From: Candidatus Aenigmatarchaeota archaeon
GTDB lineage: Archaea > Aenigmatarchaeota > Aenigmatarchaeia > QMZP01
DNA length: 10,857 nt
Direction of reading: 5' to 3'
Assembly: GCA_039091855.1 (NCBI GenBank)
Contig: JAWCLA010000026.1
Span: 1-10,857 of the forward strand
Under the pieces are notes generated by a model. The model saw only the letters and a program-made list of their open reading frames with translations, was not told the origin of the DNA and did not search any database. The position numbers and the translations under genes were made by a program. Below, one piece after another: positions 129 to 10,424 of the stretch; position 1 is the stretch's first letter, and the number at the start of each line of letters is the position of its first letter.

Positions 129-1355
129 ATGATAGCCCTTAACTGGGAGCCAAAGACAGGGATTTGGTGCGAGGAGGAGGATGGAAAGGAAAGGTTGAGG
201 AAGAACTTTTTCGGCGAGTTCAGAGACGAAAGGATATTCCTAAACCCAGAGGAGGCGCTTTACATCATAACGTTCCTAAATGGCGTTTGCTACAAAAGCG
301 GAAACCCTGTCGGCTTCAACGATATAGCATCTCATTACATAAGGCAGAACCCAAGGCTTATGGTTGACTACAACGCCTACAGGGACTGGAGGGACAGGGG
401 ACTGATACTGAAAAAATTCGGCGAGGTAAAGCTCCAAAAGGAGCCAAAAAAGCCGAAGGGGGAGAAAAGGTACCCGGCAAAGGGCCTGAAGGTAGAGAGC
501 ATACCAGAAAAGGCTCACTGGTACCCTGAATCGCTCTTTGCTGTTGTTGACGAGCAGAAAATCGGGGAGGAACTTTTCAACAAATACTGGTTCGGACAAC
601 TTGGGGTTTACAGGCAGGAAAGGGGAAACCTGTTAAGGCTCGACTTTATGGAAACCATATTCCTGTCAAAGATGTTCGGGCTGAAAGTGATAGATTCCTC
701 CACAGGAAAGCTTGTGACGGGTGAACATATTTTAGAACAGGTTTCAAAGAAGCGCGAACACGCAAGAAGGCTTTACGAGGTTTACGAGGACTGGAGGATG
801 AGGGGATATGTTGTAAAGACAGGCTTCAAGTTCGGCTCGCACTTCAGGATATATTTCCCGGGCGCATCGCCCGCCCTCTCACCCAGCAAGCAGGGAAACG
901 AAAAAAAGGAGTGGATACATTCAAGGCACGTCCTTCACGTCTTCCCAAAGGAGCAGAAGCTTCTTGTTTCGGAGTGGGCGCGGGCAGTGAGGGTGGCGCA
1001 CAGCGTTAAAAAAACCTTTCTCCTTTCTGTTCCCGAGCTGAAGGAAAAGGATATAAGGGAGTTTGGCGTGGCATCGGAATTTCTCGCCTACAGGAGAAAG
1101 AAGCAGGGACAGAATCTCGTGAGGGAGAACCCTGAGGAAGACAAGCCAAGATACCTTTTGGTTGCCTTTTCAGAGGATGACCACATAGGTGGCGTTGAGC
1201 TCGCAAGCCTGCTGAAAAAGGCAGAGTCCCTCGGGCTTCAGCTGCTGCTTTCAATAACCGACAGGGAGACATCAATAACCTATTACGTCCTTAACAAGAT
1301 AGTCCTGCCAGACTCGGAGAATGAGTATTACGAGATAGAGTGGATGAAGCCATAG
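129..1355 (+). CDS. endA: tRNA-intron (splicing) endonuclease, three-unit epsilon2-like architecture
   Basis: 408 aa. Catalytic unit with YEDWRMRGYVVKTGFKFGSHFRIY (Tyr), WIHSRH (His) and RVAHSVKK (Lys). Duplicated N-subdomain (LNPEEALY..AYRDWRDRG). Third C-subdomain unit ending YYEIEWMKP. Confidence 0.95.
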   Translation: MIALNWEPKTGIWCEEEDGKERLRKNFFGEFRDERIFLNPEEALYIITFLNGVCYKSGNPVGFNDIASHYIRQNPRLMVDYNAYRDWRDRGLILKKFGEVKLQKEPKKPKGEKRYPAKGLKVESIPEKAHWYPESLFAVVDEQKIGEELFNKYWFGQLGVYRQERGNLLRLDFMETIFLSKMFGLKVIDSSTGKLVTGEHILEQVSKKREHARRLYEVYEDWRMRGYVVKTGFKFGSHFRIYFPGASPALSPSKQGNEKKEWIHSRHVLHVFPKEQKLLVSEWARAVRVAHSVKKTFLLSVPELKEKDIREFGVASEFLAYRRKKQGQNLVRENPEEDKPRYLLVAFSEDDHIGGVELASLLKKAESLGLQLLLSITDRETSITYYVLNKIVLPDSENEYYEIEWMKP

Positions 1356-1405: not shown

Positions 1406-1488
1406 AGGACGGCTTAACCCAATCTATCCAAGCCGTCATTCCAAACCCAAGAAGGACGGCTTAACTCAATCTATCCAAGCCGTCATTC
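1406..1488. repeat. Two 36-bp direct repeats (1406-1441, 1453-1488), each palindromic
   Basis: AGGACGGCTTAAC(C/T)CAATCTATCCAAGCCGTCATTC occurs twice with one mismatch and an 11-bp spacer. Internal inverted repeat GACGGCTT/AAGCCGTC. Confidence 0.95.
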
Positions 1489-7592: not shown

Positions 7593-7651
7593 AGGTGAAT
7601 ATAACAAAGTTGGGGCTATGGTGTAGCTTGGTCTAGCATCGGAGCATGGGG

Positions 7652-7736
7652 ACAAGCCTTTCTTTACAAGAGCCCACGGGCTTCTGCAAAGAAACCCTTG
7701 GGAAAGAAACAGGCAAAAAAGAAGGTCTTGACATCC
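7652..7736 (+). other. tRNA-Pro intron at canonical position 37/38 (85 nt)
   Basis: BHB: central helix ATGG/ACAT (one G-A mismatch), bulges GG^A and CC^T, flanking helices CAAG/CTTG and the anticodon stem. Confidence 0.88.
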
Positions 7737-7757
7737 TGCTTCAGACCCCGGTTCAAA

Positions 7758-7859
7758 CCTGAGCCTTCTTTCCCGAAAGAAGGCCAAGGCTCACCCAGAA
7801 ATGGAGTTACAAAATAACTGAGAAAGTGTTATCCGTTTATTTAAGGCCTGAGGTGAAAG
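7758..7859 (+). other. tRNA-Pro intron at non-canonical position 59/60 (102 nt)
   Basis: Central helix TTCA/TGAA, bulges AA^C and AG^T, T-stem as outer helix. Removal restores TTCAAAT. Confidence 0.88.
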
Positions 7860-7974
7860 TCCGGGTAGCCCCATTATTTCATTCTTTAGAGCAAAAGCTA
7901 ATAGTATTTAAATGGATTTTTTGCAGCCTTGCGGCTAACAATCACTAAGTCCTTAGAACGAACTTATAACCCAA

Positions 7975-8166
7975 TCAAAACCTTCTTCTCTTTGCGAAGC
8001 ACTCTTTGCAGTATACAGGCCTGCCCTCTGTTGGCTTGAAAGGAACTTCCGTATCCTTTCCACACTCAGAACAAACGGCCTTGTGCATTTCTCTCGGACC
8101 GAAATCCCTGCGCTGACCGCCAAAACCGCCTTGCCTGTCGCCGAAGCGCTTTCTTTCAAATGCCAT
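7975..8166 (-). CDS. CxxC-x17-CxxC domain protein (small zinc-ribbon)
   Basis: PREMHKAVCSECGKDTEVPFKPTEGRPVYCKECF with an R/G/F-rich N-terminus. ATG at 8166 is preferred because the TATA box near 8252-8262 would put the TSS downstream of the track's 8238 start. Confidence 0.92.
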   Translation of the reverse strand: MAFERKRFGDRQGGFGGQRRDFGPREMHKAVCSECGKDTEVPFKPTEGRPVYCKECFAKRRRF

Positions 8167-8367
8167 TTTCTTTCTCTTATCGGATTTTTTGTTTCCTTTG
8201 GTGAATCCGCTTTTATCCTTTGCTTTTGGTTCTGACACTATTGGGGATTGGTATTTATATATGTTTTGCAGAATACTCTACAACTGACGATAGCATTTAT
8301 TGAATGATTCATAAAAACAACTAAGGCTAAGCGCCGATGGTCCAATGGCTAAGACAAAGGCCTTCCA

Positions 8368-8434
8368 ACCAAAAAAAGCCTTTCAATAAAAGGCTTGAGC
8401 GAAAGGGAGCTAACGCTTCCATAAGCGAGGGGAA
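8368..8434 (+). other. tRNA-Gly intron at position 37/38 (67 nt)
   Basis: Central helix CTTC/GGGG (two G-U pairs), cut sites CA^A and AA^A. No clear intron-side closing helix, so a bulge-helix-loop type junction. Exact boundary is ambiguous by 1 nt because of A runs. Confidence 0.85.
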
Positions 8435-8455
8435 AGCCTTTTATCCGGGTTCGAA

Positions 8456-8565
8456 ACCCAAGCCTTTTTACAAGAGGCTTCCGCCCTCTTCAAAAAGGCT
8501 AGGGCTTACCCAAAAACAGGCGACATAGTTAACCGATTAAAGGGTTAGCCGTGAATGAAAGAAAA
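8456..8565 (+). other. tRNA-Gly intron at position 59/60 (110 nt)
   Basis: Central helix TTCG/AGAA (one G-A mismatch), cut sites AA^A and AA^T. Removal restores TTCGAAT. Confidence 0.85.
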
Positions 8566-8579
8566 TCCCGGTCGGCGCA

Positions 8580-8597
8580 TTTTTTGATTTTTTTTTT
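8580..8597 (+). terminator. Oligo-T archaeal terminator after tRNA-Gly
   Basis: Two long T runs immediately after the discriminator base. Confidence 0.6.
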
Positions 8598-8672
8598 GTG
8601 TGACTTAGTGTAAAAATGAAGTGTTAATATATTATATTTTTAATAAGTTAAGAAGTTTATGAAAACAACCAT

Positions 8673-10424
8673 TCATTCATTACTTGTTTTCTTTATTAAA
8701 TTTTTCAAACATTCTATAAAATTTTTATTATCATTAAGTTCATTTTCCTTTTTAAAATCCCAAATGTCTTCTTCTTTGGTTATTTCTTTTAAAAAATCTT
8801 CACTCAATATATCCTTTATGTCATCCCATCTGCCATAGAAATACTCATTTATTAAAGGCAAAATTTTTCTGAACCAAACCCTTCTCAAATCTTCTTCTGT
8901 TTCTACACCCATAAAATAAGAATGTCCTATTTGCTTGTCTCTTTCACCTTTTTCAATTATTCTTTTATTTAATGCTTCCAAAAGCTCCTTCAGATTCACA
9001 CCTTTAATACTTTTGCCTTCCAATATTCTGGCATCAGGCACCATCTCAAAAAACTCAAAGCGCCTTCTTAAAGCAATATCGATTAATGCTATGCTTTTGT
9101 CGGCAGTGTTCATAGTTCCTATTATATACAGGTTTGGAGGGATGGAAAAATTCTCTTGAGAATATGTAAGCTTTAAGATTATTTCATTTTCATTACTTTC
9201 TCTTTTATCTTCTTCAATTAGCGTAATTAGCTCTCCAAATATCTTGGGTATATTCCCACGGTTTATTTCGTCTATAATTAGATAGAATTTTTTATCTCTT
9301 TCTTTCTTTGCCTTGTCTACTATATTTTTTAAGATGCCTGGTTTTATCACATATGTAACTTGCCCACCATCTATTTTTGCTGTGATGCCTTCTACAAAAT
9401 CTTCATAAGAATAACTTGGATGGAAAGTTACAAACTCTATTCTACCTTCATTTTTTATGTTTTCATATTCTTTCTTGACTTTTTCATAATTGCTGAATTT
9501 TTTAAGTTCTTCTGCATCATCACATAGTTTTGTAAAATCCTCACTTCTTTCTATCTTAACTATGACTGCTTTTGTTGCATATGTTTTTCCCGTGCCAGAA
9601 GGACCGTAGATGATTATGTTCAGCGGAAGCTGTGTTTTTGATAGTTTGTTTTCTAAACTAGCAGTTATAGAAGCATTTCGTATATCTATACTATTTTTCC
9701 ATTTTTCGAAAAATTTCTTTCCTTTTTCATTTTTATCAAAATAATTAAACATCATATCTATTTCGTGATAGATTGTTAGATGTTGACCTGAAATTTTACC
9801 AACATAATCAAGATAAAATTCTTTAAACTTTTCAAATTTTTTTGAAAAATTTTCAAAATCATTGTTATCAATTTCTTCATTTAAAATATCTGATAATATG
9901 TTTCTAGAACATGCATTGAATATTGGTATTTTATCTGGGTGTAGAATAGAATATAATTCTAAAATTCTTTTTGTAGCGTAATTTTTCGCATTAACCCCCT
10001 TACCCTTCACTTGTTCAATTAGATTATACACCTTTTCTAATATTTTTGATAAATCTTTTTTTTCTTTCAACCTTTCTATATCAAAAATTATTTGTTTTAG
10101 TTCTTCTATATAACCTTTGTCTAATAATGTTCCAAGTATACTACATGTTCCTCCAAAAAAAACAAGCCAGTCTTTATCTTTATATTTTACATTCCTTCTT
10201 GACAAAAGATATCTCAATTTATCACCAATATCTTTTTCGTCTATGTCTTTTCTCAATTCTTCTACCAAATTTTTTACAATTTCAACTCTTTTACTCCATA
10301 TCGAATCTTCAGTAAAATCATAGTTTCCATCTTCACACACATTTTTTTCCAAAACTAAATTTTTCCAATAATAAAGCAAAGGTTTTACTTTTTCTTTCCA
10401 TTCTTCATCTCGATTTTGAAGCAT
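8673..10424 (-). CDS. mcrB: McrB-family AAA+ GTPase (type IV restriction)
   Basis: Walker A GPSGTGKT, FVTFHPSYSYEDFVEG, Walker B IIDEINRGN, McrB signature MNTADKS, ALRRRF and IGHSYF. About 260-aa N-terminal domain not recognised. Confidence 0.93.
   Translation of the reverse strand: MLQNRDEEWKEKVKPLLYYWKNLVLEKNVCEDGNYDFTEDSIWSKRVEIVKNLVEELRKDIDEKDIGDKLRYLLSRRNVKYKDKDWLVFFGGTCSILGTLLDKGYIEELKQIIFDIERLKEKKDLSKILEKVYNLIEQVKGKGVNAKNYATKRILELYSILHPDKIPIFNACSRNILSDILNEEIDNNDFENFSKKFEKFKEFYLDYVGKISGQHLTIYHEIDMMFNYFDKNEKGKKFFEKWKNSIDIRNASITASLENKLSKTQLPLNIIIYGPSGTGKTYATKAVIVKIERSEDFTKLCDDAEELKKFSNYEKVKKEYENIKNEGRIEFVTFHPSYSYEDFVEGITAKIDGGQVTYVIKPGILKNIVDKAKKERDKKFYLIIDEINRGNIPKIFGELITLIEEDKRESNENEIILKLTYSQENFSIPPNLYIIGTMNTADKSIALIDIALRRRFEFFEMVPDARILEGKSIKGVNLKELLEALNKRIIEKGERDKQIGHSYFMGVETEEDLRRVWFRKILPLINEYFYGRWDDIKDILSEDFLKEITKEEDIWDFKKENELNDNKNFIECLKNLIKKTSNE

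What the first reader, a model, noticed from the sequence alone, without database searches (positions are those of the whole stretch)
7758..8565. The two 59/60 introns appear homologous, suggesting intron transposition between tRNA genes
Seen: both follow GGTTCRAA and share, in order, CCYRAGCCTT, hairpin 1, AAGGCYARGGCTYACCCARAAA, a second stem (Gly GGCTTACCC/GGGTTAGCC; Pro AGGCT/GGCCT plus AAATGGA/TCCGTTT), then GCC(G)TGA..TGAAAG near the 3' site. Established: intron transposition among tRNAs has been proposed for Thermoproteales. Inference: common ancestry, and the conserved two-stem architecture beyond what splicing needs hints that the excised RNA has a function.
Basis: partly seen in the sequence, partly recalled or inferred. 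Interest (0 to 1): 0.7.

Follow-up and report, generated by a model that had tools for sequence, protein, structure and literature searches.

The report
Triplex-coded mobile introns in tRNA T-loops
Two neighbouring archaeal tRNA genes are each interrupted in the T-loop by related copies of a small structured repeat that has spread through this group's tRNA genes and carries the sequence signature of a three-stranded helix, which gives a handle on how such introns arise.

Summary
tRNA-Pro(GGG) (7612-7873) and tRNA-Gly(TCC) (8331-8579) each carry a 37/38 intron and a 59/60 T-loop intron (7758-7859; 8456-8565). The two T-loop introns are similar beyond chance, also with hairpin 1 removed (z 3.2; 9 of 1000 shuffles). 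They belong to a family: 25 of 28 catalogued tRNA genes in this genome have a 59/60 insert, about half with the same module, which a covariance model finds in 34 of 61 related genomes. The 3' TGAA motif pairs with T54-R57 (splice helix). Hairpin 1 (P1) and a second helix (P2) covary. Unexpectedly, the purine tract after P1 is a co-varying mirror of P1's purine strand, the code of a class II purine-motif intrastrand triple helix, published only for bacterial DNA repeats. Syntenic Pro(GGG) in three congeners lacks the 59/60 intron. 16 of 89 copies lie at other sites (D-loop, 37/38, gene ends). Much shorter 59/60 introns exist, so splicing does not need the module. Best reading: a mobile triplex-coded repeat that seeds spliceable introns, not shown to be a functional excised RNA. 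No RNA data. Earlier notes of this scan reported the same module and mirror tract on other genomes; I found no paper on it.

The parts
7612..7873 (+). tRNA-Pro(GGG) gene; exons 7612-7651, 7737-7757, 7860-7873
   Evidence: Read; ARAGORN calls tRNA-Pro(ggg) with a 37/38 intron of 85 nt once the T-loop insert is removed
7652..7736 (+). 37/38 (canonical-position) intron of tRNA-Pro, 85 nt
   Evidence: ARAGORN i(41,85); orthologues have 33 nt (G003, G004) or none (G001)
7758..7859 (+). 59/60 T-loop intron of tRNA-Pro, 102 nt
   Evidence: R1 model hit 7747-7801, 57.2 bits
7758..7789 (+).
   Evidence: P1 covariation over 88 distinct copies: 90.5% of cells paired, 10 of 11 pairs with changes on both sides
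7790..7804 (+). Tail: CTCACCC (P2 5' strand) then purine tract AGAAA 7797-7801 (candidate third strand), then TGG
   Evidence: Column logo; mirror rule. In this copy 4 of 7 positions fit as computed, 5 of 7 if the third C is read as a substituted A (my reading)
7845..7852 (+). P2 3' strand (GGCCTGAG), pairs with 7790-7795
   Evidence: Duplex search (-4.8 kcal/mol); family-level cognate vs non-cognate test p<2e-4
7854..7859 (+). TGAA (pairs with T54-A57 at 7752-7755: splice helix) plus AG, the intron part of the 3' bulge
   Evidence: 67 of 67 T-loop introns form at least 3 of 4 such pairs; position 57 covaries with n-5
8331..8579 (+). tRNA-Gly(TCC) gene; exons 8331-8367, 8435-8455, 8566-8579
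   Evidence: ARAGORN tRNA-Gly(tcc) i(38,67) after removal of the T-loop insert; exons identical in G001, G003, G004
8368..8434 (+). 37/38 intron of tRNA-Gly, 67 nt; not present in the three same-genus orthologues
8456..8565 (+). 59/60 T-loop intron of tRNA-Gly, 110 nt
   Evidence: R1 hit 8445-8518, 69.8 bits
8457..8504 (+). P1 hairpin with a nested tip hairpin (about 8472-8490); T5 tract 8465-8469, A5 strand 8492-8496; A8460/A8501 mismatch
8505..8516 (+). Tail: CTTACCC (P2 5' strand) then A5 8512-8516 (candidate third strand; T5 = A5 = A5)
8542..8548 (+).
   Evidence: -5.7 kcal/mol. The MFE fold instead uses part of it in a TTAACC hairpin, so P2 and that hairpin compete in this copy
8560..8565 (+). 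AGAA (3 of 4 pairs with TTCG 8450-8453) plus AA of the 3' bulge
   Evidence: read
129..1355 (+). Context: 408-aa three-unit tRNA-splicing endonuclease paralogue (one N-terminal and two catalytic-type domains)
   Evidence: Pfam PF02778 plus 2 stretches of PF01974; found in 58 of 61 related genomes

Best explanation
The two T-loop inserts are protein-spliced (BHB-type) introns. Both are copies of one small structured repeat that has colonised the tRNA genes of this archaeal order. Each copy has four parts. (1) A 3' end YGAR+AA whose YGAR pairs with the universal T54-R57 of the T-loop. This gives the 4-bp splice helix, with the 3' cut in the bulge (A A | T60) and the 5' cut in the bulge (A58 A59 | N). 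(2) A long hairpin P1 starting about one nucleotide after the 5' cut, which stands in for the outer helix of the bulge-helix-bulge motif. (3) A tail N-T-Y-A-Y-C-C that forms helix P2 with a downstream GGRTR. (4) A purine tract that is the mirror image of P1's purine strand. Parts 2 and 4 together have the strand order and base code (A opposite A-T, G opposite G-C, antiparallel to the purine strand) of a class II purine-motif intrastrand triple helix. That design is published for bacterial DNA repeats (BoxC/PIT/TM_ECO) and reported there not to form in RNA. I therefore read the module as a mobile DNA repeat whose fold matters on the single-stranded sense DNA, in copying or instability. It survives inside tRNA genes because any T-loop can supply the splice helix, so the splicing endonuclease removes it. 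Shown here: the family, positions, splice-helix, P1, P2 and mirror covariation, occurrence outside tRNAs, and differences between close relatives. Inferred: that a triplex really forms, that it forms in DNA rather than RNA, that it drives copying, and that the introns are spliced.
For: Intron status: removing the insert at 59/60 makes ARAGORN call a tRNA in 28 of 28 candidates, against 4 tRNAs in the raw genome; 25 of 28 carry an insert there. Splice helix: in 67 T-loop introns (25 own, 42 relatives) 48 form 4 of 4 and 19 form 3 of 4 pairs between T54-R57 and n-5..n-2; 57:n-5 is A-T 24, G-C 23, G-T 5; slid controls give at most 2.25 of 4 against 3.72. P1: 88 distinct copies, 90.5% of cells paired, 10 of 11 pairs with changes on both sides, 0 of 500 shuffles reach the score, slid controls at most 58.4%. 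P2: cognate -5.52 vs non-cognate -4.46 kcal/mol, p<2e-4, 34 introns. Mirror tract: 42 distinct pairs, 5.74 of 7 cognate vs 4.42 non-cognate, p<1e-4; of 31 asymmetric tracts the mirror reading beats the antiparallel one in 25, loses in 2, ties in 4. T-run length equals A-run length in 33 of 42 (27 of 33 without the own genome), and a register slide drops 5.74 to at most 3.83. Tool count at columns 28/147: U/A 64, C/G 18, other 4; 24 double-change cells vs 5.6 +/- 2.0, 0 of 500. No Watson-Crick partner tract in 0 of 15 informative genes; the exact mirror tract in 10 of 15. Spread: model hits in 34 of 61 genomes, up to 19 per genome; 16 of 89 copies are not at the T-loop. Turnover: syntenic Pro(GGG) has no intron in G001, only a 37/38 intron in G003 and G004, both in G000. 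G003's Gly intron matches G000's Pro intron (84% over query 165-205) rather than G000's Gly intron. Not needed for splicing: module-less 59/60 introns of 14, 21, 29 and 32 nt in the same genome. Published comparator, passages read: class II order Y-R-R, purine motif not formed in RNA, link to genomic instability (PMC4666352); polarity rules (PMC7583470).
Against: No RNA run holds the locus, so splicing is unobserved. No physical evidence for a triplex; the tracts are short (5-8 layers) and A/T-rich, and the source is a hot-spring metagenome. The layer next to the tract (columns 25/144) does not follow the code (U/A 43, other 44). The window's Pro copy fits the mirror rule only partly (4 of 7 as computed) and the Gly copy is all A/T, so these two copies alone could not show it. 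P1 abuts the 5' cut and P2's 3' strand often abuts the splice helix, which fits an RNA-level splicing role just as well. G-U wobbles in P2 and in the splice helix show selection on the sense strand but do not tell RNA from DNA. No mobility enzyme is tied to the element: the hairpins beside the two Y1 transposase genes do not resemble P1 by eye, and no reverse transcriptase was found in an 84%-complete genome. Copies are related, so permutation p-values overstate independence. A3 is fitted to the model, which favours P1. The tRNA catalogue came from my own scan and is not exhaustive.
Confidence: 0.55

Rival explanations
1. The whole fold (P1, P2, purine strand laid along P1) is an RNA tertiary structure. 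It packs the roughly 100-nt insert into an autonomous three-way junction and presents the two cut sites to this lineage's unusual endonucleases. On this view the module is a cis-acting splicing aid.
For: P1 begins about one nucleotide after the 5' cut, so the cut lies in a 3-nt bulge between the splice helix and P1. P2's 3' strand lies 1-5 nt from the splice helix in the distal type. The genome has two endonuclease paralogues, one of three units. Module copies start at the stop codon of that endonuclease gene in three genera. G-U wobbles occur in P2.
Against: Introns of 14-32 nt without the module sit at the same site in the same genome. 16 of 89 copies are outside the T-loop, some outside any RNA gene. 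The code is that of the purine motif, which the passages I read describe as not forming in RNA (PMC4666352) or as contested (PMC7583470).
Confidence: 0.22
2. One reading: the excised (possibly circular) intron is a functional RNA acting in trans, and the conserved stems and purine-rich tract are its working parts.
For: Near-invariant positions among covarying pairs (A21, C24:G127 88 of 88, T130, A131, T138, A140, C142, C143). Many copies per genome would be released together with tRNAs.
Against: No target or partner emerges. The purine tract's variation is accounted for inside the molecule. No match to any Rfam family, including C/D-box RNAs. Copies in non-intron settings and in antisense orientation to a gene. 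Presence or absence varies among congeners for the same tRNA.
Confidence: 0.1
3. Similarity is plain recent common descent of a neutral insert, with no selected structure beyond the splice motif.
For: Very close pairs exist within the genome (z up to 31.6). A/T-rich low-complexity tracts inflate apparent similarity.
Against: Changes on both sides in 10 of 11 P1 pairs over 88 copies from 5 taxonomic families. Coordinated three-strand changes over run lengths 1-5. Invariant columns next to variable ones.
Confidence: 0.03
4. The module is a non-autonomous element moved by the IS200/IS605-type Y1 (HUH) transposases of the genome, which act on hairpins in single-stranded DNA and insert next to a short target such as TTCRA.
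For: Two Y1_Tnp matches over the curated cut-off on contig C37. The element is a hairpin with a conserved short motif just 3' of it, inserted after a fixed pentanucleotide in 73 of 89 copies.
Against: The inverted repeats beside the transposase genes do not resemble P1 by eye. Non-tRNA copies are flanked by direct repeats of about 12-16 nt, whereas this transposon family is said to make no target duplication (recalled, not from a call). No TnpB over the cut-off.
Confidence: 0.07

Closest known systems
Transposed tRNA-intron families of Thermoproteales (Fujishima et al. 2010, seen only as summarised in PMC4090602, and in the preprint 10.64898/2026.10.13.758758)
   Same: Related intron sequences in tRNA genes of different isotypes and at different positions; BHB-dependent splicing; differences between close relatives.
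   Different: One dominant site (59/60: 73 of 89 copies). A defined covarying fold with a mirror purine tract. Copies also outside tRNA genes.
Relaxed bulge-helix-bulge introns at non-canonical positions, cut by broad-specificity endonucleases with extra loops (PMC5829648, passages read)
   Same: 4-bp central helix with a 3-nt bulge on each strand; T-stem as one outer helix; endonuclease genes present.
   Different: The second outer helix is a hairpin (P1) in a multi-helix junction, not a continuation of the same two strands. Cleavage was not observed.
Class II purine-motif intrastrand triplex DNA repeats of bacteria (BoxC / PIT / TM_ECO; Holder et al. 2015, PMC4666352: abstract and passages read)
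   Same: Strand order pyrimidine - purine - reverse-Hoogsteen purine on one strand; dispersed multi-copy repeat; loci that differ between close relatives.
   Different: A/T-rich rather than G/C-rich. The second 'loop' is about 15 nt and itself structured (P1 base plus P2 strand). Archaeal. Sits inside spliceable introns. That paper does not contain the words tRNA or intron.
Triple-helical RNA stability elements and pseudoknot triplexes (review PMC7583470, passages read)
   Same: A hairpin plus an A-rich strand lying along it.
   Different: Those use two U-rich strands clamping one A-rich strand (pyrimidine motif, parallel). Here one U-rich strand faces two purine strands in the antiparallel code.

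Membership tests
Archaeal protein-spliced (BHB) tRNA intron | Insert lies in a tRNA gene and its removal restores a canonical tRNA | tested here: met
   ARAGORN of 28 after removal at 59/60, including Pro(ggg) and Gly(tcc)
Archaeal protein-spliced (BHB) tRNA intron | 4-bp central helix flanked by two 3-nt bulges that hold the cut sites | tested here: met
   Helix T54-R57 with n-5..n-2 in 67 of 67 (at least 3 of 4 pairs), with covariation; 3' bulge AA|T in 51 of 67; 5' bulge A58 A59|N from the alignment logo. In the Pro copy P1 starts at the first intron base, so that bulge is 2 nt unless the first P1 pair opens
Archaeal protein-spliced (BHB) tRNA intron | Two outer helices continuous with the central helix (strict hBHBh') | tested here: not met
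   The T-stem is one outer helix. The other is hairpin P1, whose 3' strand runs on into the tail and P2 rather than into the central helix: a relaxed form
Archaeal protein-spliced (BHB) tRNA intron | Cleaved by EndA and ligated in vivo | not testable with these tools
   No RNA run holds the locus; endonuclease genes are present
Transposed intron family (Thermoproteales type) | Similar introns in tRNAs of different isotypes | tested here: met
   hosts called Pro, Gly, Arg, Trp, Leu, Ser, Asp/Tyr, Cys, His, Glu, Val and others. Isotype calls for genes with more than two introns are unreliable
Transposed intron family (Thermoproteales type) | Same intron family at different positions of tRNAs | tested here: met
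   D-loop (L083, L101) and 37/38 (L102, own C1:28224-28274 at E 0.5)
Transposed intron family (Thermoproteales type) | Presence or absence differs between close relatives at orthologous genes | tested here: met
   Pro(GGG), Pro(TGG) and Gly(TCC) in G000, G001, G003, G004
Class II purine-motif intrastrand triplex repeat | Order 5' pyrimidine tract - purine tract - second purine tract on one strand | tested here: met
   definition read in PMC4666352
Class II purine-motif intrastrand triplex repeat | Third tract is the mirror of the duplex purine tract (A with A-T, G with G-C, antiparallel) | tested here: met
Class II purine-motif intrastrand triplex repeat | Short loops (3-6 nt) between the three tracts, as in TM_ECO | tested here: not met
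   The connection from the purine strand to the third tract is about 15 nt (P1 base plus tail head)
Class II purine-motif intrastrand triplex repeat | Triplex forms physically | not testable with these tools
   Needs CD, NMR or footprinting
Intron-borne C/D-box guide RNA | C and D boxes; match to a known family | tested here: not met
   No Rfam hit at gathering score; only sub-threshold chance-level hits at E up to 10
IS200/IS605-derived miniature element | Ends resemble those of a resident IS | tested here: inconclusive
   Two Y1_Tnp genes are present; the nearby inverted repeats do not look like P1 by eye; IS ends were not mapped

The most novel reading that the evidence does not exclude
A non-B DNA repeat is the vehicle of archaeal tRNA-intron gain. 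The module folds on the displaced sense strand of heavily transcribed tRNA genes into a hairpin plus a purine-motif triple helix, which provokes breakage or copying. It persists wherever its ends can pair with the universal T-loop sequence, so that the splicing endonuclease erases it from the RNA. Alternatively, if the fold forms in the transcript, it would be a natural all-RNA purine-motif triple helix; in the passages of PMC7583470 that I read, the triple helices described within folded RNAs are of the pyrimidine motif.
Probability: 0.4. Interest if true: 0.9.

Novelty: new variant of a known kind. Interest (0 to 1): 0.78.

Why it matters
[quoted passage not shown] Here the inserted unit can be defined, modelled and counted. 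It carries a testable structural code, and close relatives still differ in whether a given tRNA has it. That makes intron gain testable by biophysics on short oligonucleotides, by in vitro splicing, and by population metagenomics. It also explains why standard tRNA finders see almost no tRNAs in these genomes (4 in 689 kb; none over the Rfam cut-off).

Tried and rejected
Sequencing runs: no RNA holder is listed for 7600-8600. Contigs of four DNA runs laid on the stretch were fragmentary; the joints seen (for example a Gly-like gene without the T-loop insert in X1 and X2) had short sides at 85% likeness and may come from other organisms, so I draw nothing from them. Rfam at gathering and at E up to 10 gave nothing usable. 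My first custom tRNA scan was too permissive (1481 candidates) and a second timed out; the working version is. MAFFT on all 14 module copies misaligned the B-type copies (A1), so the model was built from 8 A-type copies (A2). Idea rejected: the purine tract pairs by Watson-Crick rules with P1's 5' strand (duplex energy cognate -5.8 vs -5.55, p 0.12) or with another tract in the gene (0 of 15). Idea rejected: the tract is a direct repeat of P1's 3' strand (antiparallel score not above non-cognate at widths 6 and 8). A first attempt at that test kept only 22 rows because of a column-extraction error and was redone. A pseudoknot between the GGG after the tract and CCC in the P1 loop was considered but not tested. 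The Y1 transposase reading frame I chose gave no Pfam hit (protein 3), so I rely. I thought three copies interrupted a protein gene; a frame check showed that they start at its stop codon. The direction of the Pro(GGG) change (gain or loss) could not be settled without a rooted tree.
Full report
WHAT IS IN THE WINDOW. The window is a whole 10,857-base contig (C19) of a 689-kb, 38-contig assembly rated 84% complete. An earlier scan note places the genome in the Aenigmatarchaeota from a hot spring; I did not test that. Standard tools see no tRNA here: ARAGORN finds 0 in the window and 4 in the genome even with introns allowed, and no Rfam tRNA match reaches the cut-off anywhere in the genome. 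Read by hand, 7612-7873 is tRNA-Pro(GGG) and 8331-8579 is tRNA-Gly(TCC). Each has an intron at 37/38 (7652-7736; 8368-8434) and a second one between T-loop positions 59 and 60 (7758-7859, 102 nt; 8456-8565, 110 nt). When the T-loop inserts are removed in silico, ARAGORN calls both genes with the expected anticodons.

THE OBSERVATION. The 22-mer occurs twice in the window, and 0 of 200 shuffles give two matches. The two introns align with z 5.0 (0 of 1000 shuffles). With hairpin 1 cut out, z is 3.2 (9 of 1000), and with the 22-mer remainder also cut out, z is 2.35 (35 of 1000).

A FAMILY, NOT A PAIR. A custom scan (T-stem, TTCRA, acceptor pairing and D-arm features) gave 28 tRNA genes. The list is not exhaustive. 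25 of the 28 have an insert at 59/60, and removing it gives an ARAGORN tRNA in 28 of 28. All-against-all comparison of the 25 inserts places the Gly intron with C1_10501 (z 31.6) and C2_15432 (15.8). The Pro intron groups with C1_28195 (16.2), C35_3102 (11.8), C28_4936 (8.4) and C1_50708 (7.4), with bridges between the two groups, and there is a third group of four. A covariance model of the 5' module (R1, built from 8 own copies) finds 13 copies at E<0.01 in this genome. It finds copies in 34 of 61 genomes of the order, own genome included: family f1 25 of 36, f2 2 of 9, f3 1 of 1, f4 4 of 5, f5 1 of 1, f6 0 of 8, with up to 19 per genome. Genomes without a hit are incomplete assemblies and stricter filters were used, so this is 'not found', not 'absent'.

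ANATOMY AND WHAT EACH PART IS FOR.
(a) Splice helix. The conserved TGAA near the 3' end pairs with T54-R57. In 67 T-loop introns (25 own, 42 from relatives), 48 form all four pairs and 19 form three. Position 57 covaries with its partner (A-T 24, G-C 23, G-T 5). Sliding the register drops the mean from 3.72 to at most 2.25 pairs. The last two intron bases are AA in 51 of 67 and position 60 is T in 64 of 67. This is the central helix of a bulge-helix-bulge motif with the T-stem as one outer helix.
(b) P1. Over 88 distinct copies, 90.5% of cells pair, 10 of 11 pairs change on both sides, no shuffle reaches the score, and slid controls stay at or below 58.4% (the alignment is fitted to the model, which favours it). 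P1 starts about one base after the 5' cut, so that cut lies in a 3-nt bulge and P1 takes the place of the second outer helix.
(c) Tail and P2. After P1 comes N-T-Y-A-Y-C-C, near-invariant at T138, A140, C142 and C143. It pairs with a downstream GGRTR, either directly after the purine tract or near the 3' end (cognate -5.52 vs non-cognate -4.46 kcal/mol, p<2e-4, 34 introns).
(d) Purine tract. The tract after CC(C) is neither a forward copy of P1's 3' strand nor complementary to its 5' strand in the usual antiparallel sense. It is the same-direction complement of P1's pyrimidine tract, that is, the mirror image of P1's purine strand.

EVIDENCE FOR THE MIRROR RULE. In 42 distinct pairs the match is 5.74 of 7 for cognate against 4.42 for non-cognate pairs (p<1e-4). 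Among 31 asymmetric tracts the mirror reading wins 25 to 2, with 4 ties. The leading T-run equals the leading A-run in 33 of 42 pairs (27 of 33 without this genome) over run lengths 1 to 5. A one-base slide lowers the match to at most 3.83. On the model alignment the informative column pair 28/147 reads U/A 64, C/G 18, U/G 1, other 4, with 24 double-change cells against 5.6 +/- 2.0 in shuffles. No Watson-Crick partner for the tract exists elsewhere in the gene (0 of 15 informative genes; the exact mirror tract is present in 10 of 15). By my inspection of the copies listed, the rule also holds in copies outside the T-loop. The window's own two copies are weak witnesses: Gly is T5/A5/A5, and Pro fits 4 of 7 as computed (5 of 7 on my alternative alignment).

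WHAT THE MIRROR RULE MEANS. A purine third strand that matches the duplex purine strand base for base in antiparallel orientation is the code of the purine-motif triple helix (PMC7583470, passages). The order pyrimidine - purine - purine on one strand is what Holder et al. call a class II intrastrand triplex motif. They describe it for dispersed bacterial DNA repeats (BoxC/PIT/TM_ECO), show it to form in vitro for the G/C-rich TM_ECO, link it to genomic instability, and say it does not form in RNA (PMC4666352; abstract and passages). That paper contains neither 'tRNA' nor 'intron'. I reached the mirror rule before seeing the scan notes that point to this paper (one search came), but the paper and the DNA-level reading came to me through those notes.

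MOBILITY.
(i) The syntenic Pro(GGG) gene has no intron in G001 (a plain 75-nt gene), only a 33-nt 37/38 intron in G003 and G004, and both introns in this genome.
(ii) Pro(TGG) has no intron in G003, a different 59/60 intron in G001 and a module intron in G004.
(iii) Gly(TCC) exons are identical in all four genomes. The three relatives lack the 37/38 intron. Their 59/60 introns are a 63-65-nt short-tip version (G003, G004) or a version with another P1 stem sequence (G001). BLAST pairs G003's Gly intron with this genome's Pro intron, not its Gly intron.
(iv) Of 89 aligned copies, 73 follow TTCRA and 16 do not. Those 16 include D-loop copies (L083, in a gene that also has a 59/60 copy; L101), a 37/38 copy in a tRNA-Trp (L102), and copies beside protein genes.
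(v) In this genome a copy lies antisense at the start codon of an S10-like gene, flanked by a 16-nt direct repeat.
(vi) Copies in three genera begin exactly at the stop codon of the three-unit endonuclease gene, and several insertions there are followed by a second copy of the gene's last dozen bases.
Whether the Pro(GGG) difference is a gain or a loss cannot be decided without a rooted tree. Its nearest relatives lie in other tRNA genes of the same genome, which fits copying within the genome.

IS THE MODULE NEEDED FOR SPLICING, AND DOES THE EXCISED RNA DO SOMETHING? Introns of 14, 21, 29 and 32 nt without the module sit at 59/60 in this same genome (C33_12071, C7_8883, C12_5141, C7_8676). 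The conserved parts are accounted for by intramolecular pairing, and the module lives outside introns too. I therefore favour a selfish, DNA-level explanation (0.55) over an RNA splicing-aid fold (0.22) or a trans-acting RNA (0.10). No RNA data could be found.

ENZYMES. The genome encodes a 198-aa endonuclease (C12) and, in this window (129-1355), a 408-aa protein with one N-terminal and two catalytic-type domains. The latter is found in 58 of 61 related genomes. Two Y1 transposase genes lie on C37, but the nearby inverted repeats do not resemble P1 by eye. No reverse transcriptase was found and no TnpB over the cut-off, in an 84%-complete genome.

LITERATURE. Searches for Aenigmarchaeota or Aenigmatarchaeota with 'tRNA intron' or 'intron' and for 'triple helix' with 'tRNA intron' and 'archaea' returned no paper on this. 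The library is limited to open-access texts, and supplements were not consulted. Fujishima et al. 2010 was not read; I know it only through PMC4090602 and the 2026 preprint. According to that preprint, cross-isotype intron families are frequent in Thermoproteales and nearly absent in Asgard.

EARLIER NOTES OF THIS SCAN. On other genomes they describe a hairpin-plus-purine-tail module in tRNA and rRNA introns and behind stop codons with 16-21-bp duplications, and a mirror purine tract in DPANN T-loop introns. My results on this genome and its relatives agree with them and add four things: the splice-helix covariation, the P2 test, the quantified mirror rule, and the orthologue comparison at this locus.

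CAVEATS. The copies are related, so permutation tests overstate independence. A3 is model-fitted. Isotype calls for genes with more than two introns are unreliable. All relatives are unnamed draft genomes. Nothing here shows that a triplex forms or that the introns are spliced.

Noticed in passing
window 129-1355 (+): 408-aa protein with one N-terminal and two catalytic-type tRNA-intron-endonuclease domains (three-unit layout), beside a conventional 198-aa EndA on contig C12. Homologues found in 58 of 61 related genomes.
   Followed up: partly
L116 (G010), L132 (G024), L059 (G050); module-like by eye in L119 (G018) and L122 (G027): The intron-type module begins exactly at the stop codon of the three-unit endonuclease gene, with the stop embedded in P1's 5' strand. 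The window's own copy ends with TAG and has no module. R1 calls only L116 and L132 at the stop among the 30 loci. A substrate-like structure on the enzyme's own mRNA might be regulatory.
   Followed up: partly
G000 contig C2, about 17090-17226 (-), locus L035: A module copy outside any tRNA, antisense at the start codon of an S10-like ribosomal protein gene, flanked by a 16-nt direct repeat that includes the ATG. The repeat's last 9 nt serve as P1's 5' strand.
   Followed up: partly
window 1407-1437 and 1454-1484 (+): Two tandem copies of a roughly 31-nt hairpin (GGACGGCTT ... AAGCCGTC) just downstream of the endonuclease gene. The same stem sequence is nested inside the 196-nt T-loop intron of the tRNA at C7:9101.
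   Followed up: no
window 7975-8238 (-): 87-aa treble-clef zinc-finger protein (PF23477) between the two tRNA genes. It is the most widely conserved part of the locus among relatives.
   Followed up: no
window 8406-8421 and 8474-8489; G000 C1:10501, C2:15432, C7:9702: A small GC hairpin of the form GAGNC-loop-GNCTC recurs as the nested tip of P1 and inside 37/38 introns, as if it were a separate insertable unit.
   Followed up: no
G000 C7:9177-9382 and C18:10354-10715: Internal tandem duplication of the module in one T-loop intron (196 nt), and three tandem repeats of a roughly 55-nt hairpin unit in a 37/38 intron.
   Followed up: no
L083 (G010 contig C16): One tRNA gene carries the module twice, in the D-loop and at 59/60.
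   Followed up: no
G000 C37:7094-7453 (-) and 9001-9324 (-): Two IS200/IS605-type Y1 transposase matches over the curated cut-off, one with an in-frame TAG.
   Followed up: partly
alignment A3 columns 18-21 (P1 5' strand): The conserved Y-R-A in P1 reads TAA or TGA whenever Y is T. In the copies at gene ends this triplet is the gene's stop codon.
   Followed up: no
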